IMG/VR virus record: IMGVR_UViG_3300033402_000780
Span: 1 to 41,024 of that record
DNA from: a virus
Taxonomy: Duplodnaviria > Caudoviricetes
Direction: 5' to 3' (one strand)
Length of the DNA stretch: 41,024 bases
The notes beneath the pieces were generated by a model, which was not told the origin of the DNA, did not search any database, and saw only the letters and a list, made by a program, of their open reading frames with translations. Shown in pieces: positions 11,001 to 33,291 of this stretch (positions within the stretch are counted from its first letter, which is position 1; the number at the start of each line of letters is the position of its first letter). The translations under genes were made by a program, and so were the position numbers.

Positions 11001-11978
11001 TCCCGTGCCCTGCACCACGATAGGCCCGTTCGAGATGAGCATCTCAATCTTTTGCGGGTAGCCGTTGGTTGTGCGGTCAAAGCCGTCAATAGGCGCTTGA
11101 TTGTTGGTGCCCAGGCGCACCTGATAGGAGCAGTTGCTAAAGACGGAGATGGGCTGTTGATTGATGAGCACGTTGGAAATGCTCACGGCCTGGCCCCATC
11201 CGTAGCAGACAAGGCAGTTGATGTAAGCGTCTTTTCCGTCGAAGTTCACATAAGACGAAATGACGTTGCCACACCAACCCATGGTGCCGTACCCCTTGGG
11301 GACGGGCACGCCGGGTTGTGCGAGACCCTTGGGGCCGGTGGGGTCATAACTTGCGGACCATGCCGGGGAACTTTGCTGCCCTGGAGAGAACGCCCAGGAG
11401 ATAAGCAGGCTGCCCACCATGCCCACGCCGGCAGAGATAGCGGCGGCCATGCCGGTAGTGAGATAGGGTCCGAGGAAGGCCAGGAAACCGACTCCGCCCG
11501 CGCCCGCCGTGATGGCCGCACAGAGCACGGTGAGCGCCAACATGCTCACCATCTCCCACACCTTGCCGCCGGCGGCGCGCGGATAGAGAACTATTTCGTC
11601 TCCCGGCTCAACTTCGGTGGAAGATAAGTCCTCGTCAAGGACGCGGTCACCGTTGAGGCTGCACTTGAAATCCGCAAGCCGAAACTCATTCCTAAACTCG
11701 GCGGCTTGGTGTTCCTCAGCGAAGCTCAGCGCGTCTTTGACATCCCCGTCCAACGCGCGCTCGATAATCGCGGCCATGCTTTCGTTATTGAATGTCGGTA
11801 TCTCAAAGACGCGGTGCTCTTCAGGCTTGAAAGGATTGTCATTGACAAGGATGCGCACAGGGCGCGAGGTGAGCGTGCGCTCGATGTCCGGGAGAACATA
11901 AGCGGGCGCGGCGCACTCGACAATGGAGACAACTTGCGCGGGTGGATTTAAGGACGGGAAGTTAGAACTTGTTTCCAT
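8064..11978 (-). CDS. Central tail tip protein (gpJ-like) with N-terminal gpI-like ubiquitin fold and FN3-like C-terminus
   Basis: GDEIVLYPRAAGG, PVPKGYG, LSYPN, DNPA, GCTSRDQA and FRVVSI motifs; likely start 11978. Confidence 0.9.
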   Translation of the reverse strand: METSSNFPSLNPPAQVVSIVECAAPAYVLPDIERTLTSRPVRILVNDNPFKPEEHRVFEIPTFNNESMAAIIERALDGDVKDALSFAEEHQAAEFRNEFRLADFKCSLNGDRVLDEDLSSTEVEPGDEIVLYPRAAGGKVWEMVSMLALTVLCAAITAGAGGVGFLAFLGPYLTTGMAAAISAGVGMVGSLLISWAFSPGQQSSPAWSASYDPTGPKGLAQPGVPVPKGYGTMGWCGNVISSYVNFDGKDAYINCLVCYGWGQAVSISNVLINQQPISVFSNCSYQVRLGTNNQAPIDGFDRTTNGYPQKIEMLISNGPIVVQGTGTNVQGLDITVKFPSGLYRITGDGNDVPLKVIYKIEVSPHNTNTWTSPLFPNNTQTVATTHSDGTQTWPAWVVVPTDRFAGSGIVYASDNGTHTPGDLWSNTQTVTTNNVDGTTSNTSATFKGEWQPCDPNLNQALVTSWWQGYRIVEDCTFSAFFDTVSVYGLTSGQWDVRITKVAWEWDNNHYIFYSDATSSQTVCDCWLWNINEIFWSNLSYPNMILVGVKALATSQLNGGSIQLMATIKHDIGADTVIPARLSSYEHDNPAIVAYDMLVNPLYGMGIAANLIDVPAFVAWAAFNDQMVTNQDGSQVRRHIFSGTFDQAGDAWHALGIIGGMSRASIIQLGMRYSVILDAPGDPVQLFTVGNTKKSSFQEQWMALDDRCTLIEVDFADAARNYRMDLPVSVMTAADINSGLQPKITRTKLTGCTSRDQAWRWAYFHLMSTKLTLRTVQFSAPVEAVCCSLGSVIALQSDVVQWAVGGRVQAGSTLNTLSVDRTDLTFAAASGWTVSVQHPVVQRGTAQVQSVSGLNVTMTAALPTGRIVKAVDGPGNEYIVTGYSGSTITLSGSTGSLAAGQVLTLYDCNVIDNLSVTAVAVTPGFGSVVSVSGQFSAVPSKDSAWAYGQSAGAQPAKLFRVVSIKKSGDFNFDIGAMEYNATIYTDVVPNYGEIVGVPDSSPVITDLTLVEQFQNGTLTGSSNSAVVSVGWRNNNTAVGAQVQVQASGGTWNTLGNIQGQSCTFVGTIGTTYNVSATGFDWQGNLLGNPVTGLITVQASTNVPANVTGFSCAINSSGLPVLTWAAVTGADHYEIRYQGSQDYYPWDTATVLWDGTGTTWTDTTLRTGMYMIVAVLSVAAGGLMSLIPAYITPYPDPPIVTISQSATNTSGSGGSATASAGVTVNSNGSVTTAAIVWLTISWTWPSNYPTPSAFNVVAFTGSDPTAAANYLFDMVTVGATTTSYTVPVCPTAAMSIVNAAVRSVYA

Positions 11979-12340
11979 CGATAGAAGCCCTCTATTCGAG
12001 CTTTCCACGGAAACGAGTTATACCGCTCTTTTAGGACTCCAACGCCCTCGCGGCTGTGCAGCATCCAACCATCTCCGCAGACCACACCGATATGCCAGCG
12101 TGGATTGAGGGAGCGAATAAGTATGGCGTCACCGGGAGCTGGGTCCGCAACTAACTCCCAATCGGCAACGGCAAGCTCTACGGCCTCCACTGCGCTTGCA
12201 TACGCGGGCACCGGAACGCCGAGACGGCGCTCTATCTCCAGCAGTAAGCCAACACAGTCATAGGCATCTGGACCGCGCGCGTCTTCACGCCACGGCTTTC
12301 CTAGCAAGTCTGCCCACAGTGAGTAAGGGATGGTCTGCAT
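11948..12340 (-). CDS. Tail assembly protein, NlpC/P60 (gpK-like)
   Basis: GPDAYDCVGL...WHIGV...LHS. Confidence 0.9.
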   Translation of the reverse strand: MQTIPYSLWADLLGKPWREDARGPDAYDCVGLLLEIERRLGVPVPAYASAVEAVELAVADWELVADPAPGDAILIRSLNPRWHIGVVCGDGWMLHSREGVGVLKERYNSFPWKARIEGFYRWKQVLTSRP

Positions 12341-12348
12341 CTAGTTCT

Positions 12349-12384
12349 CCACCCCAGCGGCATGGACCCGCCGCCAGGGACCCC
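12349..12384 (-). repeat. 36-nt conserved hairpin element, copy A
   Basis: GGGGT-CCCTGGCGGC-GGGTCCAT-GCCGCTGGGG-TGG, 8 nt before the gpK ATG. Confidence 0.85.
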
Positions 12385-12386
12385 GG

Positions 12387-13052
12387 TTAGTTTTGTGCCG
12401 CCAGCACTGTGCCGTTGGTTCCGATGCCTGGGAACGCTCCGAAGCGGCCGGCATTGTTATGCACCTTGCAGCCGTTCGCGCCGTTGTACGTGCCATCGCA
12501 GTTGGTGAGCGATCCGGTGTATCCACACCAGATGCTTTTGTAGTGCGAAACGTACATGCAGAAATTGGCTCGGTAAAGGTACTTGGGAAAGAGTTGCCGC
12601 AATGGGCTGGGAGCGGAGAGAGAGAACGTGACCACTTCCGCCGTGCTCACGGACTTCATTATCGTTGTGGAGACAGCCAAGTCCGGCTCACCGGCGGGAT
12701 GCGCGGTGTTGTAGACGTACACGTTTGCCGTGGCACCCGCGAGGCCACCGTACTGCTCAATGATGCCTTGCAGGATGCGCATGGTATTCGATGCCTTGAG
12801 CACCATCGTGGGCAGTTGTCCAGAGCCTGGCTGCTCAGCGGAGAATTCAAAGTTGAATGGTTGATACGTCTGTACGCCGTTGCCATCGCCGGCGTCGAAT
12901 TGGATCGGGTCAACGTTGCGCGCAAAGCGCATGTGTTGCCCGTTCCAAATGATGTCGAGCAACAGAAGCCAGGCGTCTCCGGAGGCCAGCACGAACTTAT
13001 CGCGCTGGGCAGCCAGGGAGAGCACGGCCATGGGAGAGACGGCAGTGGGCAC
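12387..13052 (-). CDS. Minor tail protein, gpL/DUF1833-like
   Basis: YQPFNFEF motif; C-terminal four-Cys cluster and RFGAFPGI. Confidence 0.85.
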   Translation of the reverse strand: MPTAVSPMAVLSLAAQRDKFVLASGDAWLLLLDIIWNGQHMRFARNVDPIQFDAGDGNGVQTYQPFNFEFSAEQPGSGQLPTMVLKASNTMRILQGIIEQYGGLAGATANVYVYNTAHPAGEPDLAVSTTIMKSVSTAEVVTFSLSAPSPLRQLFPKYLYRANFCMYVSHYKSIWCGYTGSLTNCDGTYNGANGCKVHNNAGRFGAFPGIGTNGTVLAAQN

Positions 13053-13054
13053 GG

Positions 13055-13993
13055 TTATACCTCCGTCAGTTCGAGCTTGGCTCCGTAGACTTTCACGCCG
13101 TTGCCCCAGCCGATGTCTGCGATTTCAGGCAGAGAAGAGAAGCGCACAAGACAGCCAAGCGACTGCGATCCAACCATGCGGCCGTAGGGCGTGAGCGGCG
13201 TGAGCAAGCTGCAACCCACCGTGTCCCAAGAAACCGATGCGGAGCCGTCAAGCGTGATGGCCGACGCGGTGGAGTTGGTAAGCGTGACGAGGAGACTCAC
13301 TTTGAAGCTGGCCGCGCTGGCCGGCACGGTGAACTGATAGCCGTACGTCTGCCATCCCACGCCGATGGTTGCCGCCGTGCCGTTTACCGTTGACAGCGCT
13401 CCGCCGCCAGCATTCAAGTAAGACACGCTCACTTGCGCGCCAAGCACGCCCGCCGCCAGTGTGCCCTGGATCGCATCCAGGGCCGCTGTGAAGACGTAAA
13501 CCTCTCCGGGCTTGCAGGGCACTGCCAGATCACAGTTGAGCGCGCCTGTGACGGTTGTGTTCGCGGCAATGGTATTTGTGGCCACGGTTCCGAACTTGAT
13601 TACCTGGGTGCCGTCCGCAACCGTGGTAGTGCCGATGCCGATGGACTCCTGAACCGGCGCGCTGGAGATGTTCCACCCCAAGACAAGATCGGAGGCCGTG
13701 AGGGCCGGAAACTCAAAGGACCAATTGGGCAGGAGGTTGGGAAAGAGAAAGCTGTTGCCACCGCGCGCCGCGTAGCTGGGCGACATGAAAAACTCGTCCA
13801 ACGCGCGGATGTCTTCCGCTACGAGGTTGCGGACGTTGAACGGCCAGGTACGCCGGGCGCGGGTCCCACGCGGGCGGGTGGAGACATACCCGCTCTCCGC
13901 CGGATCGCGGATCGTGTCATCCTCGGTTTTCTTCGAGGTGTCCATCGAAGGTTGGCGCGAAAGTGACGGAAAGATGAGCGGGAATGTCGCCAT
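13055..13993 (-). CDS. Distal tail protein (gpM/Dit-like) with inserted CBM-like domain
   Basis: GYVSTRPR.TR.RRTW N-terminus; NLLPNWSFE insertion; VRF...LELTEV C-terminus. Confidence 0.75.
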   Translation of the reverse strand: MATFPLIFPSLSRQPSMDTSKKTEDDTIRDPAESGYVSTRPRGTRARRTWPFNVRNLVAEDIRALDEFFMSPSYAARGGNSFLFPNLLPNWSFEFPALTASDLVLGWNISSAPVQESIGIGTTTVADGTQVIKFGTVATNTIAANTTVTGALNCDLAVPCKPGEVYVFTAALDAIQGTLAAGVLGAQVSVSYLNAGGGALSTVNGTAATIGVGWQTYGYQFTVPASAASFKVSLLVTLTNSTASAITLDGSASVSWDTVGCSLLTPLTPYGRMVGSQSLGCLVRFSSLPEIADIGWGNGVKVYGAKLELTEV

Positions 13994-14035
13994 ACCTCAA
14001 CCATGCGGCGATATTGGAAAAGGCCGCAAAATCCG
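13991..14035 (-). promoter_or_regulatory. Late-promoter motif copy (Dit operon), leaderless
   Basis: ATTTTGCG-N19-CATGGT-N6-ATG. Confidence 0.65.
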
Positions 14036-14070
14036 GGGTCCCCGTTGGCGGGTCCATGCCAATGGGGTGG
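14035..14070 (+). repeat. 36-nt conserved hairpin element, copy B
   Basis: GGGGT-CCCCGTTGGC-GGGTCCAT-GCCAATGGGG-TGG, 11 nt before ATG 14082. Confidence 0.85.
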
Positions 14071-14081
14071 AAAATAGAGCT

Positions 14082-14789
14082 ATGCAACTCAAGGCGACGG
14101 TGGATGTGAGTGAAGCGGTGGCGGGCTTGGATGAGCTACAACACAAGAGCTTGCCGTTTGCGCTGGCAAAGACGTTGACGGGATGCGCCAAGGCCGGCCA
14201 GACCGTGGTTCAAGAGAACCTGGGCGGCAAGTTCACACTACGGAACAACTTCACACAGCGAGGCATCCGCATCAAGCCGGCAGAAAAGAATGGCGCGGTG
14301 ATCGAGGCGGACGTTCACACGCACACCGACACGCCAGGGCACCCTGATTATCTTGGCATTCAAGAGGATGGTGGAGAGAAAGTCCCGTGGGGCGGGCACC
14401 ATTACGTCTCGGTGCCAACCAAATATCTCCGGCAGTTGGCCCCAGGGATCATCCCGGCGGAACTAAAGCCTGGGGCGCTGCTCACTGCGGTGGGCGGCCG
14501 GTTCACGGCCCACACGCGCAAAGGCCAGATCGCACTGCGCAACCAGAAAGTGGTGCAGGGGTTCGTTTTCTTTGTGCAGAGCCTCGGCGACGGGCACAAG
14601 GCCATCATGGGCCGGTACTGGACGGATCGGGACGCCTACCCGTTTTACCTGCTCATTCCGGAGGCACACATCAAGCCAAGGCTCGAGATGCAACAGGACG
14701 TAGAGCGCGCGGCGCAAGCGGCATTCCCGGAGCTATGGGCGGGTACATGGCGTCAGATCATGGCGCGCGGGTTGCGTATCACATCGTAA
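14082..14789 (+). CDS. gpZ-like minor tail/neck protein, on the opposite strand
   Basis: LPFALAKTLT..AK, FTLRNNFTQRGIRI, YLGIQEDGG and IKPRLEM resemble the gpZ / HK97-gp10-like family. Confidence 0.65.
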   Translation: MQLKATVDVSEAVAGLDELQHKSLPFALAKTLTGCAKAGQTVVQENLGGKFTLRNNFTQRGIRIKPAEKNGAVIEADVHTHTDTPGHPDYLGIQEDGGEKVPWGGHHYVSVPTKYLRQLAPGIIPAELKPGALLTAVGGRFTAHTRKGQIALRNQKVVQGFVFFVQSLGDGHKAIMGRYWTDRDAYPFYLLIPEAHIKPRLEMQQDVERAAQAAFPELWAGTWRQIMARGLRITS

Positions 14790-14836
14790 CGGTTGGGGTG
14801 TGTGGTAGACTGCGGTCGCAACTCCGGAGGGTAGCC

Positions 14837-15052
14837 GTGAACGGAAGCTCAGTGGATGGGATCGTTTTAGTTGGGTTGATCGCTGTACTTTATTTTCTAC
14901 CCTTGTGGGTTGCGGCTTCCCGCCGCTGCAAGGCTGGCGCGGGTATAGGTGTGGTGAATATCTTCCTGGGATGGACGTTCATCGGCTGGGTGGTTGCGTT
15001 AGCTTGGGCTGCATGTGGAGAGCAGAAGCCAAAAGAACTCCCCGCCGATTAG
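14837..15052 (+). CDS. Superinfection immunity protein (T4 Imm-like)
   Basis: LYFLP..VA..R....IGVVNIFLGWTFIGWVVALAWA; GGAGG SD; TGnTAGACT extended -10 at 14803-14811. Confidence 0.85.
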   Translation: MNGSSVDGIVLVGLIAVLYFLPLWVAASRRCKAGAGIGVVNIFLGWTFIGWVVALAWAACGEQKPKELPAD

Positions 15053-15450
15053 CGGGGAGTGTCGCTCAGTGGCTTGAGCTTGGCAATGTCAAACGCACCC
15101 TGCTCTGGCATCACCATTGTCAGCCGAAAATGGCCTTTCCAGAATCCGGTCTGAAGATCAGTCCTAAAGAAATACTCTTTCCCCGGCTCAAGTGTGACAA
15201 CCGCTCCAGCTTGCTTGTCATTGGCATAAAACGTGTGGGGTCCAGGTGACAGCCTGACATCGAACACAGTGCCACCTTGAATTCTCCCGACCTCATTCCC
15301 ATCGCAGTAAATCGAGGGTTTGAGAAGGACTCCCTCATACTGCTTATAACGATAAAAATGAACCGTGGCATCCGCAACAGGAGTCTGTTGCGCGTCACAG
15401 ACAGCGCACAGAGAACAAAGAGCGCACAGGAACAACAGAGTTTTTCGCAT
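15049..15450 (-). CDS. Exported DUF2846-like protein (moron)
   Basis: Signal peptide; ATVHFYR...L.PG.H...LEPGKEYF; TATAAT 7 nt before ATG 15450. Confidence 0.7.
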   Translation of the reverse strand: MRKTLLFLCALCSLCAVCDAQQTPVADATVHFYRYKQYEGVLLKPSIYCDGNEVGRIQGGTVFDVRLSPGPHTFYANDKQAGAVVTLEPGKEYFFRTDLQTGFWKGHFRLTMVMPEQGAFDIAKLKPLSDTPR

Positions 15451-15472
15451 GGCCAGCATTATACCTCTACCG

Positions 15473-17632
15473 CTAATGGCCGAACATGCCGGCGAAACCT
15501 TGGGTGATGGCCCCGTTGGTTTCCTGATCTTTCAAGACAATTTGCAGGATCATCGCTTCCGCCTGGCCGCTCGATTGTTGGGTTGAATCTACCTGTTGGG
15601 GCGTGCCCATGTTGTTCAGGATGACTTGTACGCCGCCCGCGCCCGATCCGGAACCCTTCCCTACCTGCAAGGCCCCAGCAACCGAACTGAGCACGGTTCC
15701 CGCCCCGGCGTTGCCGGTCCCGTTCGATGTCGGGCCGGATTTCTTGCCAAACAAGCCCTTCAGTAAGCTCTCCGCGCCGCCGATCCCCTGACCTACCAGG
15801 CCGTTGTGCCCTCCGGTACCCGCCCCATGTGCGCCGCTGCCATCCCAGCCCTTGCCTCCGCGTCCGGAGGGATCGCCGAACAACTCACCGAAAAGCTGAG
15901 ACTCCGCCGTCTGCCCAATGTCTTTGAGCATGTTGGCGCGAATCTGTTTCCACTGCTTATCCCACTTTTCGCCCAGGTCGAAGAGCGGATCGAACAGGCC
16001 ATGCGCGAATTTTTCCGCCTCATTATCGATGCTTTGGGCATTGTTCTTAGAAATTGGCGCAGCTATCAGGGAGTTCGCAGCAGCTTCGCCACCTAATGAT
16101 GTTATCTGGTTCTGCACTTCGTTTCGCTTTTTACTTGTATCCCCGCCGCGACTTTGGATTTGCTCCAACTCGTTCAAGAGCGCATTGAGAACCACAATAT
16201 CGGCTGCATATTGCTTGGCGCGGATCGAAGCCACAGCTTGAGCGGCGGCCTCGTCGCTGATTGATTTAGCAGCTTTGTCGTGCTCCACGGCAGCCTCGGC
16301 AACCTTAGCGGTAGCAGCGGAACGCACCTCTGCTGCGGTCGCCTCCGCCTGAGCCGATTCCTCTTGCGCTTTGAGGGTGTCTTCCCACGTCTTTGTAATC
16401 GCCTCGGTAATGTGGTCGTTCTCACTCTGTGCGTTTTTGGCGTCCGCAATCGATTCGCTCACAAATTCTGAAGTGATCTTCTTTTGTTCTTGAGCGTTCT
16501 TAGTGGCCACCTCTTTGGTGAGTCGGTTGATTTCGTTTAACGCTTCCAGGTATTGAGATGAGCCACGCTGAAACGCACCGATTCTCTTTTGCCAGAACGC
16601 TATCTCATCTTCGATTGACATAGCGTGCTGGCGTTGTTGCTCCGCGAGCGATGTGCGATCAGCCTGCATACGGGCACGACTCTGTTTCTCTAGCACCTCG
16701 GGATCAGTAGGCGGTAGTTTCGCCGGGCCAGTTGCATGTGCCGTCGAGGCGGCAAGATCTTGCGCGGCATGAAGTTGTGCCAGGTATTCATCAAGTGGGT
16801 GCTTTCCGTCATCGGAAAGCCAGTGCCACATGTCTTTCGCCGAGGAGATGATGGTATCCATGCCCTCTGCAAAATCGTTGACATAGGCAGTAATGACCGG
16901 CGCGGCTGTGCCGGTGATGGTGAGGCTTAGACGCTTCCACGCGGCGTCCAGATCGTTCAAGGCGTGGTGCATGTCCTCCATTTTCTTGAGGTCCTCATCG
17001 CTGAAAATGGGTGCCTCCGATTTCATTTTCTCAAGGACCTCCGAGCCTTGATTCAAGATCGGAATCATGTCCTGGCCGGCCTTGCCAAAGAGCTTGACGG
17101 CGGCAACGTTCTTTTCGATACCATCGGGCATCTGCTGGAATTTATCGGCAACCAACTCCATGACGCCGTACATGTCGTTGCCCTTGGTCTTTACTTCCTC
17201 GGCGGAGATGCCAAGGATTTTGAAGCCCTCAGAGAGCTTGCCGGCGTCCGTCTCATGAATGGCCTCGGCAAGTTTCTTTCCCGATTTAGCCACCGTCTCA
17301 AACTCAACACCGCTGGCGGCGGCGGCGTACTTGAGCACCGAAAGGCTATCTGTCGAGATCCCGGTTTGTTGATGGAGTTTGCCTATCTGTACGCCGGCCT
17401 CCATGGTAGAGGTGACCATTTCCCTTAAGCCGTTGACAACCTCTCCGATGCCAACCGTGATGCCGGCGTATTGGAGGCCCTGCATCAAGCTCTGTCCGAT
17501 ACCTGCGAGGGAACTGGAAGCCTCTTTGGCTTTCGCCTCAGTCTCATCCAAGTGTTTCTTGATTGCGTTGAAGACTTCGCCGGTCTTATCTTCGCCGGAT
17601 ACGACAACGATCACGCCGCCTTTACTCGACAT
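15473..17632 (-). CDS. Tape measure protein
   Basis: Long Ala-rich helical protein after the chaperone; QQTGIS...LFGKAG..MIP.LNQG motifs. Confidence 0.9.
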   Translation of the reverse strand: MSSKGGVIVVVSGEDKTGEVFNAIKKHLDETEAKAKEASSSLAGIGQSLMQGLQYAGITVGIGEVVNGLREMVTSTMEAGVQIGKLHQQTGISTDSLSVLKYAAAASGVEFETVAKSGKKLAEAIHETDAGKLSEGFKILGISAEEVKTKGNDMYGVMELVADKFQQMPDGIEKNVAAVKLFGKAGQDMIPILNQGSEVLEKMKSEAPIFSDEDLKKMEDMHHALNDLDAAWKRLSLTITGTAAPVITAYVNDFAEGMDTIISSAKDMWHWLSDDGKHPLDEYLAQLHAAQDLAASTAHATGPAKLPPTDPEVLEKQSRARMQADRTSLAEQQRQHAMSIEDEIAFWQKRIGAFQRGSSQYLEALNEINRLTKEVATKNAQEQKKITSEFVSESIADAKNAQSENDHITEAITKTWEDTLKAQEESAQAEATAAEVRSAATAKVAEAAVEHDKAAKSISDEAAAQAVASIRAKQYAADIVVLNALLNELEQIQSRGGDTSKKRNEVQNQITSLGGEAAANSLIAAPISKNNAQSIDNEAEKFAHGLFDPLFDLGEKWDKQWKQIRANMLKDIGQTAESQLFGELFGDPSGRGGKGWDGSGAHGAGTGGHNGLVGQGIGGAESLLKGLFGKKSGPTSNGTGNAGAGTVLSSVAGALQVGKGSGSGAGGVQVILNNMGTPQQVDSTQQSSGQAEAMILQIVLKDQETNGAITQGFAGMFGH

Positions 17633-18374
17633 CGTTCACCGCCTGTTTCGATTGTGCCCTGAATGCGGTCACCAGCGCACGTGCCTTGGCTTCGTCACTC
17701 TCAAACGCCGGCGCGGGCTTGCCGCGCTGTTTGCGGCCCATGAGTTGATCGGGAGTGATGGGATCGGCGTCGGCTTTCTTGTGAGGCATGAGCAGCCAGC
17801 TCACCTTCCATGCGGACTCCTCGCGGCGTTCGCGCGTCTCGCGCTTGTGACGCGCGGAGCGGCCCTCAAGGATGAGAATCAACTCGCTGTACTGGAGACG
17901 GTAGAACGCATCGGGCGCGAACCCCAGCTCACCGCAGACGATACGGAAGGCGTCTTCCCATGTGGTCTGCTTACCGGCGCGGCGCTTTGACTTTGTGGGT
18001 CTCGGATTCGCCTGGGCAGCTCCGCCGTAATACTGATTGAGAGCGCGGCGGATTGCCAACACGCCTTGCTCCGCCCAGTTATGCCGCTCACTCAACCACC
18101 GCAAGTCTTCCATGGTGAGCGTCTCGCTGTGCGCCTTTGCGTCCTCTTGCAAGGCTGCCCACAGGTAAAGGCGGAGATTGTCTTCATTGACGGCAAGCGC
18201 CCATTCCCGCTCACCCGTGGCCGGGTTGATACGGTGGCCCACTTCTTCCCATGCCGGAGCCTCTTTGCCGCCGGCGTTGCGGATCAGTATCTCGGAGCCA
18301 AGATTGATTTCCACGCGCCGCCGGCGGTCGAAGTCAACAAAGATCGGTTCTTTGTAGAGCACTACGTTTTGCAT
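17622..18374 (-). CDS. Tail assembly chaperone, gpG and gpT parts in one frame
   Basis: Lies between the tail tube and tape measure genes; C-half WEDAF...ELGFAPDAFYRL..SEL is gpT-like. Confidence 0.7.
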   Translation of the reverse strand: MQNVVLYKEPIFVDFDRRRRVEINLGSEILIRNAGGKEAPAWEEVGHRINPATGEREWALAVNEDNLRLYLWAALQEDAKAHSETLTMEDLRWLSERHNWAEQGVLAIRRALNQYYGGAAQANPRPTKSKRRAGKQTTWEDAFRIVCGELGFAPDAFYRLQYSELILILEGRSARHKRETRERREESAWKVSWLLMPHKKADADPITPDQLMGRKQRGKPAPAFESDEAKARALVTAFRAQSKQAVNDVE

Positions 18375-18389
18375 TTGTCCTCACCTCAA

Positions 18390-18425
18390 CCACCCCACAG
18401 ACGTGGACCTGTCTACGGGGACCCC
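18390..18425 (-). repeat. 36-nt conserved hairpin element, copy C
   Basis: GGGGT-CCCCGTAGAC-AGGTCCAC-GTCTGTGGGG-TGG, 15 nt before the chaperone ATG. Confidence 0.85.
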
Positions 18426-18429
18426 TATG

Positions 18430-18464
18430 AAAAAATGGGCGGCGCTCATTACGAGACGCCGCCC
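18430..18464 (-). terminator. Intrinsic terminator after the major tail gene
   Basis: GGGCGGCG...CGCCGCCC followed by ATTTTTT. Confidence 0.7.
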
Positions 18465-31913: not shown

Positions 31914-33083
31914 TTAGCCTTTCAGTGTGTCCAAGTAATCAGCCCATTGCTGCAACATCGCACTGCGTTGAGCTGCATACTGTGCGCGGTTGTAGATGCC
32001 GGCCACGCCTTTCTTGTTGTGGTTCAACGCCTTCTCAATCCAAGCCTCGTTGAACTCTTTCTCGGCCAGGTTGGTTGCCGCTGTTCTGCGTAGATCGTGA
32101 ACCGTAAAGTGTTCAATCTTCACAGGGATACGCTTGAGCGCCCGATTCAATGTGCTGGGCGCAAATGGCGTGTGCAACGCGCCGTGCATGGGGAACACAA
32201 CCGTTGCCGATGGATAGCGTTCCCGTTGCCGGCGCAACGCCTCAACCGCTTGCCGGCTCAACGGGATCACAAGCGCGGTATCCATTTTGCTGTGCTCTTC
32301 CGGCAACGCCCACTCTGCGCGCTCAAGATCGAACTCCACCCAACGCGCAAGCCGCAACTCGCTTTTGCGGACTAATGTCAACAAAATCAAGAGCAAAGCG
32401 TCTTTCAACTGCGGTTTGAGCCGGGCTGTTTCAAGGGCGCGCAGAAACAACCGAATCTCCGCCTCTTTGAGCGCCCGACTCCGTTCTGACTTCTCAGCAA
32501 CGTATTTCGCCTTTGGAATCATCACATCGGCGCTTTTGTCTGTGATTTCACACTCAACCGCGTAATCCCAGATCCGTTTGAAGATGTTGCGCAGAGCCAA
32601 CGCGGCTTGCGGGTGTTCGGCGTCCATCTTGCGCTCGATGATTTCCCGAAAGTCTTTCTTTTCAACGCTTGCCAATGGTTTTTTGCCGATCACCGGGTAA
32701 ATATCGCGGTTCAAATAGCGCCGGATCGGCTTCAAATCCTCACGCTTGCGGCTCACTTGCCGTGTCAACCACAGCTCCGCAAACCGTTCAAACGTCATGC
32801 CTTGAGACTGTTGCTCCGCGCGGCGCTGTTCTGCCGGGGATCGGCCTTCACGAACAGCCGCCAAAAGCACGTCGCGGCGCTGTCGTGCGTCCGCAAGGCT
32901 CAAGTGAGGGAATCGGCCCAGGTTGATCTTTGAGGGCCGTCCACGGAGCATATAGCGCCAACGCCACGCCATTAAACCGCTCGGGCTAACCTCCAGAGCC
33001 AAGCCGCGGCCGTCTGAAACCTCAAAGCGTTTCGCTTGAGGCTCCAATCCGCGAATCTTGGCAACTGAAAGGCTATTTCTCAT
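31914..33083 (-). CDS. Tyrosine integrase, P4/IntA type with arm-binding domain (int2)
   Basis: SDGRGLALEV.PSG..W.WRY N-terminus; LVRKSEL, HDLRRT, LNH and YN all intact. Confidence 0.93.
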   Translation of the reverse strand: MRNSLSVAKIRGLEPQAKRFEVSDGRGLALEVSPSGLMAWRWRYMLRGRPSKINLGRFPHLSLADARQRRDVLLAAVREGRSPAEQRRAEQQSQGMTFERFAELWLTRQVSRKREDLKPIRRYLNRDIYPVIGKKPLASVEKKDFREIIERKMDAEHPQAALALRNIFKRIWDYAVECEITDKSADVMIPKAKYVAEKSERSRALKEAEIRLFLRALETARLKPQLKDALLLILLTLVRKSELRLARWVEFDLERAEWALPEEHSKMDTALVIPLSRQAVEALRRQRERYPSATVVFPMHGALHTPFAPSTLNRALKRIPVKIEHFTVHDLRRTAATNLAEKEFNEAWIEKALNHNKKGVAGIYNRAQYAAQRSAMLQQWADYLDTLKG

Positions 33084-33085
33084 GT

Positions 33086-33109
33086 CCTGTAACCAAACCT
33101 GTAACCAAA
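33086..33109. repeat. Tandem 12-bp direct repeat, probable integrase arm-type sites
   Basis: CCTGTAACCAAA x2 immediately upstream of the int2 ATG. Confidence 0.7.
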
Positions 33110-33215
33110 CCCGAAAACCTAGCAAGAAAGTGTTTGTTTTCTAAAGCTGTCCACTTTCAGAGTGAGAAAATTCCCGAATTAAGGCAAGTCACGGTTCGGG
33201 TAGACTGAAAACGGC

Positions 33216-33291
<76 letters not shown>

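What the first reader, a model, noticed from the sequence alone, without database searches (positions are those of the whole stretch)
12349..18425. Three copies of a covarying 36-nt hairpin, each directly before a tail gene
Seen: A (12349-12384, minus) GGGGT CCCTGGCGGC GGGTCCAT GCCGCTGGGG TGG; B (14035-14070, plus) GGGGT CCCCGTTGGC GGGTCCAT GCCAATGGGG TGG; C (18390-18425, minus) GGGGT CCCCGTAGAC AGGTCCAC GTCTGTGGGG TGG. All have the same length, invariant flanks and an RGGTCCAY loop. Every stem difference keeps pairing (compensatory or G-U). Each copy is intergenic, in the sense of the next gene, and 8/11/15 nt before the ATG of gpK, the gpZ-like gene and the tail chaperone. There is no U-tract, so it is not a terminator. 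Inference: an undescribed cis-regulatory RNA (protein-bound translational operator or processing site) that sets the stoichiometry of low-copy tail proteins, or a folded-DNA recombination/REP-like site.
Basis: partly seen in the sequence, partly recalled or inferred. Interest (0 to 1): 0.85.

Follow-up and report, generated by a model that had tools for sequence, protein, structure and literature searches.

The report
Tiny mobile hairpin of Acidobacteria phages
The three hairpins are insertions of a 38-base repeat that most close relatives of this phage lack at the same places and that is scattered through peat-soil Acidobacteria chromosomes and their phages, even in frame inside genes, so it is likely a selfish jumping hairpin rather than a tail-gene regulator.

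Summary
The three hairpins are real but are not a tail-gene operator. Of 21 related tail modules, the identical phage aside, 0 of 20 carry site A, 2 of 20 site B and 0 of 14 site C. Empty alleles show net insertions of 46, 43 and 42 nt: a 38-nt unit plus an 8, 5 or 4-nt target duplication. The unit is a dispersed repeat: 59 of 61 Terracidiphilus genomes hold 1-87 copies on both strands, and one 134-kb phage holds 35. It forms tandem arrays, nests in other REPs and sits in frame in genes (exact 14-residue gap in PBP1a). Its two ends pair and covary, and G-T pairs outnumber A-C on its own strand whether it is sense or antisense to genes, so the fold likely serves its movement. No Rfam match. The mobilising enzyme was not found; a RAYT-type Y1 enzyme acting in trans is my best guess (about 40%). 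Verdict: new variant of REP/RPE-like palindromic elements; an effect on downstream translation is possible but secondary.

The parts
12349..12386 (-). Element copy A (38 nt: 5' CC, GGGGT, 10-bp stem, 8-nt loop, TGG)
   Evidence: absent in L040, L028, L029, L021, L024
12387..12394 (-). 5' copy of A's 8-nt target duplication; holds the stop codon of the gpL-like gene
   Evidence: empty allele L040 shows one copy, net insertion 46 nt
12341..12348 (-). 3' copy of A's 8-nt duplication; the element's last GG plus its first AG spell GGAG, 6 nt before the gpK-like ATG
   Evidence: sequence
14033..14070 (+). Element copy B (38 nt)
   Evidence: filled in L020, L021, L029, empty in the other 18 of 21
14028..14032 (+). 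5' copy of B's 5-nt target duplication (AAAAT)
   Evidence: 43-nt gap in four empty alleles
14071..14075 (+). 3' copy of B's 5-nt target duplication (AAAAT)
18390..18427 (-). Element copy C (38 nt; 5' dinucleotide TA instead of CC)
   Evidence: 42-nt gap in L021 and L028 and in a contig of run X6
18428..18431 (-). 5' copy of C's 4-nt duplication (TTCA)
18386..18389 (-). 3' copy of C's 4-nt duplication (TTGA, one mismatch)
   Evidence: the same TTCA/TTGA pair recurs at host sites
18430..18464 (-). Predicted intrinsic terminator (hairpin plus U-tract) just upstream of C, present in the empty alleles too; not part of the element
   Evidence: fold, alignments
11948..12340 (-). gpK-like minor tail gene downstream of A
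   Evidence: phrog_329, E 3e-20
14082..14789 (+). Minor tail gene (gpZ-like) downstream of B, on the opposite strand in all 21 relatives
   Evidence: phrog_1924, E 2e-21
17622..18374 (-). Putative tail-assembly chaperone gene downstream of C (by position only)
   Evidence: no PHROG hit; lies before the tape-measure gene

Best explanation
The three hairpins are separate insertions of a 38-nt palindromic repeat shared by Terracidiphilus-type Acidobacteria and their phages, each flanked by a 4-8-nt target duplication, and the repeat likely moves as a folded single strand with the help of an enzyme encoded elsewhere, probably a RAYT-type Y1 (HUH) transposase. SHOWN: empty versus filled alleles; target duplication (mode 4 nt, so 42 nt net, 14 codons); dispersal on both strands, tandem arrays, in-frame coding copies, nesting in other REPs; a fold (2-bp closing pair, 5x1 internal loop, 10-bp stem, 8-nt loop) kept by compensatory change on one strand only. 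INFERRED: (1) the fold brings both ends together and shows fixed single-stranded marks (5' GGGGT, loop RGGTC) to the enzyme; (2) the strand is joined into a nicked or single-stranded target, often at another REP or hairpin, and fill-in gives an often imperfect 3' copy of the target; (3) tandem units arise by re-insertion or rolling-circle-type amplification; (4) in a gene-dense tail operon the surviving copies are those in short spacers, hence just before a start codon, and the sense orientation is tolerated because the 3' arm (GGGGTG) is Shine-Dalgarno-like. Odds: mobile repeat about 0.93; single-strand mechanism about 0.7; Y1/RAYT as the enzyme about 0.4.
For: Empty alleles for all three sites. 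28-48 copies on both strands in five chosen host genomes, reversed-pattern control 0; 59 of 61 genus genomes, 1-87 copies. 4-nt flanking repeat with at most one mismatch at 37 of 110 independent sites against 6.9 shuffled, exact at 9 against 0.7. Outer terminal pair is Watson-Crick in 26 of 40 G444 copies (13.7 shuffled) and 34 of 44 other viral copies (23.0 shuffled); 11 U-A for C-G swaps in a 39-row alignment. G-T against A-C in the stem: 50:6 in antisense copies, 42:6 in sense copies. Exact 14-residue gap in PBP1a against two orthologues; copies inside a LeuRS-like and a BirA-like ORF (named by sequence look only). 68 of 195 host copies lie within 45 nt of another repeat's tag (background 1.2% per 45-mer), with the same polarity at 56 against 3 distinct junctions; one such host repeat brackets a Y1 gene in inverted orientation (L298). 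Size, 5' tag and conserved loop fit REP determinants (PMC8266576, PMC6006769, passages).
Against: No Y1 gene is bracketed by the element in 37 Y1 loci from 10 genomes; only 3 hold a single nearby copy. Y1 genes also occur in two genomes with no copy. The papers' passages that I read describe no target duplication for TnpA-REP, and IS200/IS605-type enzymes make none (recalled). 73 of 110 sites lack a near-exact 4-nt repeat (some have other lengths). The polarity count uses tags that I chose after seeing the data, and junctions within one repeat family are not all independent events. The G-T count is slightly favoured by my filter (8 of 10 pairs, G-T counted as a pair). All about 8 insertions in this phage family are sense to the local gene, which pure neutrality does not predict.
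Confidence: 0.85

Rival explanations
1. A phage cis-regulatory RNA (translational operator or processing site) that tunes low-copy tail proteins; weaker form: a mobile repeat secondarily co-opted for this.
Against: Empty in most orthologues; only 2 of 30 host intergenic copies with a sense gene downstream lie within about 20 nt of a start; 29 antisense against 6 sense of 40 copies in phage G444; wobble bias is independent of transcription direction.
Confidence: 0.05
2. Same mobile unit, but moved as a small RNA by a reverse transcriptase priming at a staggered break (retro-element-like).
For: Variable 4-8-nt, often imperfect duplication whose 3' copy is A-rich and C-poor (39% A, 12% C against 29% and 23% on the 5' side); one-strand G-T bias.
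Against: PF00078 not found in G504 (72 copies; a MAG, so possibly incomplete) and found in G465 (0 copies); no RT among 46 window proteins or 116 G444 proteins scanned; needs an RNA with precise ends.
Confidence: 0.15
3. An ultra-short MITE moved as double-stranded DNA by a DDE transposase that makes 4-nt staggered cuts.
For: Modal 4-nt duplication; ends read CC...GG like a 2-bp inverted repeat.
Against: 38 bp is below the 50-800 bp and 10-15-bp TIRs given for prokaryotic MITEs (PMC11602168, passage); wobble asymmetry shows that one strand folds; no transposase seen between neighbouring copies in 20 stretches read (by eye, no family scan).
Confidence: 0.12
4. A site for site-specific recombination that inverts or shuffles tail genes.
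For: B is inverted relative to A and C; two integrases in the window.
Against: Gene order and the opposite-strand gene are the same in all 21 relatives regardless of hairpins; contigs of four runs show joints that skip single hairpins, none that change strand between them (presence only).
Confidence: 0.02

Closest known systems
REP / BIME elements and RAYT (TnpA-REP) Y1 transposases (PMC3733652 section 16 and passages; PMC8266576, PMC3333891, PMC6006769 passages)
   Same: 20-40-nt imperfect palindrome, short conserved 5' tag at the foot of the stem, conserved loop, tens of copies on both strands, tandem arrays, some intragenic, some nested in other palindromes.
   Different: Tag is GGGGT, not GTAG/GTGG or CGTC; ends pair around a 5x1 internal loop; single copies rather than inverted doublets; short target duplication; no cognate REPtron found; abundant in phages.
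Rickettsia palindromic elements (RPE) and intragenic REPs (PMC10969869, PMC3733652, passages)
   Same: Palindromic repeat that sits in frame in unrelated housekeeping genes; mobiliser unknown.
   Different: 38 nt (14 codons net) against about 150 nt for RPE-1; read in several frames on both strands; free-living hosts and phages.
TIRs of TIRYT genes, motif GGGGWSAS, including an Acidobacteria group (PMC3733652 section 16)
   Same: The element's GGGGTCCC fits 7 of 8 positions of that motif.
   Different: Not found as inverted repeats around a Y1 gene in 37 loci.
Prokaryotic MITEs shared by hosts and phages (PMC11602168, passages)
   Same: Non-autonomous, target duplication, links a phage to its host genus (here likely Terracidiphilus).
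   Different: Far shorter, only 2-bp terminal pairing; would escape TIR-based finders.
Mycobacteriophage Cluster K SAS/ESAS start-associated repeats (PMC3203893, passages)
   Different: SAS/ESAS are conserved at orthologous genes and nearly absent from the host; this element is the reverse on both counts.
Acido-Lenti-1 (RF01687)
   Same: Short structured repeat of Acidobacteria.
   Different: Its 22 matches in five host genomes do not overlap the element's listed places; no match at the window copies.

Membership tests
REP (RAYT-associated) | 20-40-nt imperfect palindrome, multicopy, both strands | tested here: met
REP (RAYT-associated) | GTAG/GTGG (or CGTC) tetranucleotide 0-2 nt 5' of the stem | tested here: not met
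   5' tag is GGGGT
REP (RAYT-associated) | Copies bracket a cognate tnpA-REP gene | tested here: not met
   0 of 37 Y1 loci bracketed; 3 hold one copy; sample of 10 mostly draft genomes
REP (RAYT-associated) | Mostly extragenic | tested here: inconclusive
   56 of 96 host copies intergenic, 40 in ORFs by a crude gene caller, 15 with strong coding signal on both sides
REP (RAYT-associated) | Bound and cleaved as single-stranded DNA by the Y1 enzyme | not testable with these tools
   needs in vitro assay
MITE (DDE-mobilised) | Target-site duplication | tested here: met
MITE (DDE-mobilised) | Terminal inverted repeats of 10-15 bp or more; length 50-800 bp | tested here: not met
   2-bp terminal pairing, 38 nt; criteria from PMC11602168
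MITE (DDE-mobilised) | Autonomous IS with the same ends | tested here: inconclusive
   none seen in 20 stretches around neighbouring copies; no genome-wide search
RPE-like coding palindromes | In-frame insertion in conserved genes, absent from orthologues | tested here: met
   PBP1a: 14-residue gap against L264 and L265; L266 and L267 align less cleanly
Conserved phage cis-regulatory RNA (SAS/ESAS-like) | Kept at orthologous genes across related phages | tested here: not met
   A 0 of 20, B 2 of 20, C 0 of 14 besides the identical phage L020 (several loci are duplicates)
Conserved phage cis-regulatory RNA (SAS/ESAS-like) | Rare in the host chromosome | tested here: not met
Rfam family (incl. 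RF01687) | Match to a covariance model | tested here: not met
   no match at the copies at E up to 5 or 10; only tRNAs in 20 loci at gathering

The most novel reading that the evidence does not exclude
A 38-nt hyperparasite of the REP machinery: a folded single strand that has no transposase locus of its own, is written into the strand that other REP-moving enzymes open (hence the shared polarity in four or five unrelated host repeat families), leaves a 4-nt duplication so that it is frame-neutral, and runs a phage-adapted lineage (loop RGGTCCAY, ends TC...GA) that can reach one copy per 3-4 kb in a phage genome. It would be among the smallest mobile DNAs with a target duplication and a direct handle on how REPs insert.
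Probability: 0.25. Interest if true: 0.72.

Novelty: new variant of a known kind. Interest (0 to 1): 0.42.

Why it matters
[quoted passage not shown] This family offers clean empty and filled alleles in close phage relatives, defined ends that covary, and a measurable target duplication, which narrows the chemistry and can be tested. It adds 14-residue loops to essential proteins, and it assigns this phage and a 134-kb phage to a likely Terracidiphilus host. It is also a warning: a covarying hairpin before start codons in a phage need not be a regulator.

Tried and rejected
Rfam: no match at the copies; RF01687 lies elsewhere. No DNA match in the GenBank phage set; in plasmids one full-length 85% hit in Acidisarcina, the rest chance-like. 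Mobiliser hunt: Y1 flanks, RT presence, recurring neighbour families among 602 called proteins (none transposase-like by eye; the largest cluster is held together by the element's own peptide), cargo between nearby same-strand copies (housekeeping-type genes), G444 proteins (116 by Pfam, 47 by PHROGs; short ORFs not scanned): nothing found. Donor carry-over of the 3' flank: no linkage to stem variant (0.312 against 0.304 identity; weak test across genomes). Extension of the stem into the flanks: none. Replichore bias: tallied by eye with the origin assumed at position 1, opposite trends in two chromosomes, dropped. No RNA holder listed. Inversion model rejected. Literature: searches found no description of this family; the motif strings were not in the 4 supplements of PMC3733652 held as text (its figures and other papers' supplements, such as the MITE tables of PMC11602168, were not seen and could list it). 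My recollection that REPINs make target duplications was not borne out by the passages read; the MIRU analogy (4-nt target, tandem units; recalled) could not be sourced. One row of the alignment (L072) had wrong coordinates and stayed as noise.
Full report
Observation. Each folds as a 10-11-bp hairpin. The window is a 41-kb temperate lambdoid phage with two integrases, terminase, portal, capsid and a tail module. No Rfam family matches the copies.

The sites are optional. A search with the gene behind copy B gave 21 related tail modules with the same gene order, including the opposite-strand gene. One (L020) is identical to the window. Of the others, 0 of 20 have the hairpin at A, 2 of 20 at B and 0 of 14 at C; several of these loci are duplicates of each other. 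Alignments give net insertions of 46 nt at A (against L040), 43 nt at B (four empty alleles) and 42 nt at C (L021, L028). A contig of run X6 with 9 differences over about 300 flanking bases also skips exactly 42 nt at C. Each insertion is 38 nt plus a repeat of 8, 5 or 4 target bases. The two extra 5' bases (CC at A and B) are not in the empty alleles, so they belong to the element. L024 keeps only GGGGTGG at C, which I read as a deletion between the two GGGGT words (inference). Relatives carry copies at other places instead: after the tail-tube stop (L022; two in tandem in L245), in frame in the chaperone gene (L245), before the SSB gene (L211, L027) and before the endolysin (L040).

It is a dispersed repeat of the hosts. 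A relaxed pattern hit about 3,600 stored stretches (estimate) in the species-genome collection; 79 of the 80 titled loci are Acidobacteriota, mostly Terracidiphilus. Five such genomes hold 28-48 copies on both strands, control 0. In an even sample of that genus 59 of 61 genomes hold 1-87 copies. It is patchy above the genus with the fixed-length pattern: 12 of 151 in the family and 17 of 301 in the phylum, about 9 of the latter real by inspection. Size classes of 36, 37 and 39 nt share the ends. A complete 134-kb phage (G444) holds 35 copies at up to two mismatches, far denser than any chromosome. Tandem arrays have a period of 41-44, mostly 42.

Position before a start codon is not general. 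Only 2 of 30 host intergenic copies with a sense gene downstream are within about 20 nt of a start. 40 of 96 host copies fall in called ORFs, 15 with strong coding signal on both sides, in several frames on both strands (my gene caller is crude). PBP1a of L119 has an exact 14-residue insertion against two orthologues. In G444, 29 of 40 copies are antisense and 6 sense. Against this, all about 8 separate insertions in the window's own phage family are sense. I read that as selection on survivors: the tail-operon spacers are short, and the 3' arm is Shine-Dalgarno-like; at A the junction spells GGAG 6 nt before the ATG. A side effect on translation is untested.

Anatomy. The stem covaries (95% of cells paired, 71 double changes against 18.5 shuffled, 39 rows; relatedness not controlled). 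The outer terminal pair covaries too, C-G against T-A, so the fold is a 2-bp closing pair, a 5x1 internal loop, a 10-bp stem and an 8-nt loop. G-T outnumbers A-C on the GGGGT strand equally in antisense (50:6) and sense (42:6) copies (88 of the G-T cases overall are one position and partly inherited). So one fixed strand folds, whichever strand is transcribed: the structure likely serves movement, not the mRNA. At 110 independent sites a 4-nt flanking repeat with at most one mismatch occurs 37 times (6.9 expected), exact 9 times (0.7); the 3' copy is A-rich and C-poor. 68 of 195 host copies lie inside or beside other repeats, nearly always in the same polarity as their tag (56 against 3 distinct junctions; 47 against 1 without one ambiguous family). 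One of those repeats brackets a Y1 gene as an inverted pair (L298). The loop RGGTCCAY is in 37 of 84 phage copies and 1 of 146 host copies; part of the viral set was fetched with that loop, but 17 of 40 copies in the wholly read G444 have it.

Mechanism. I commit to a non-autonomous element that is copied in as a folded single strand by an enzyme acting in trans. Size, 5' tag, conserved loop, one-strand folding, tandem units and coupling to REPs fit TnpA-REP biology (PMC8266576, PMC3333891, PMC6006769; passages read), so a RAYT-type enzyme is the best guess at about 0.4. Against it: no Y1 gene is bracketed by the element in 37 loci, and a target duplication is not what these enzymes are known for (recalled). 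An RT route fits the sloppy 3' duplication but RT presence does not follow copy number in five genomes. A DDE route fits the 4-nt stagger but not a 38-bp length.

Comparison and verdict. It works like a REP or an RPE but fails the membership tests for tagged REPs and for MITEs, and it is the reverse of SAS/ESAS. Ten paper searches found no description of this family; unseen supplements may list it. Earlier AI notes of this scan report similar intragenic hairpins in Acidobacteria and one-way hairpins in a phage; one mentions an 87-copy repeat in a peat-soil genus and may be this family, which I could not check. Verdict: new variant of a known kind, interest 0.42; the regulatory reading is rejected.

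Noticed in passing
G003:C88:19653-20278 (L173, L191, L194); G004:C1:19780-20257: Two Acido-Lenti-1 (RF01687) matches bracket a Y1 transposase gene in inverted orientation, and another lies just before a related gene; this Rfam 'RNA' may be the REP of a Y1 enzyme.
   Followed up: partly
window:399-468 (-) and 33216-33291 (+): Two tRNA-Arg(TCT) sequences in inverted orientation, each near one of the two integrase genes (914-2098, 31914-33125); possibly two att systems.
   Followed up: no
window:14082-14789: A minor tail gene lies on the strand opposite to the rest of the tail operon in all 21 relatives.
   Followed up: partly
window:17622-18374: The putative chaperone is one 250-aa frame here and in L021, L024, L028, L040, but splits into two tblastn pieces near residue 120 in other relatives, as a frameshifted pair would.
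   Followed up: no
G444 (L257-L263): 134-kb complete temperate phage with 35 copies at up to two mismatches and more decayed ones, 34 of 40 on one strand; also TROVE-domain, tRNA-synthetase-fragment, PspA and RecT genes.
   Followed up: partly
L270:506-3100: An ORF that looks like leucyl-tRNA synthetase carries two in-frame copies of the element.
   Followed up: no
L298:1298-1945: A RAYT-type gene flanked by inverted GGGTG-tagged REPs; this REP type is the commonest host of nested copies and shares the tag-stem-8-nt-loop layout.
   Followed up: partly
window:6475-6843: 30-nt repeat array in the tail-fibre gene (10-residue repeats).
   Followed up: no
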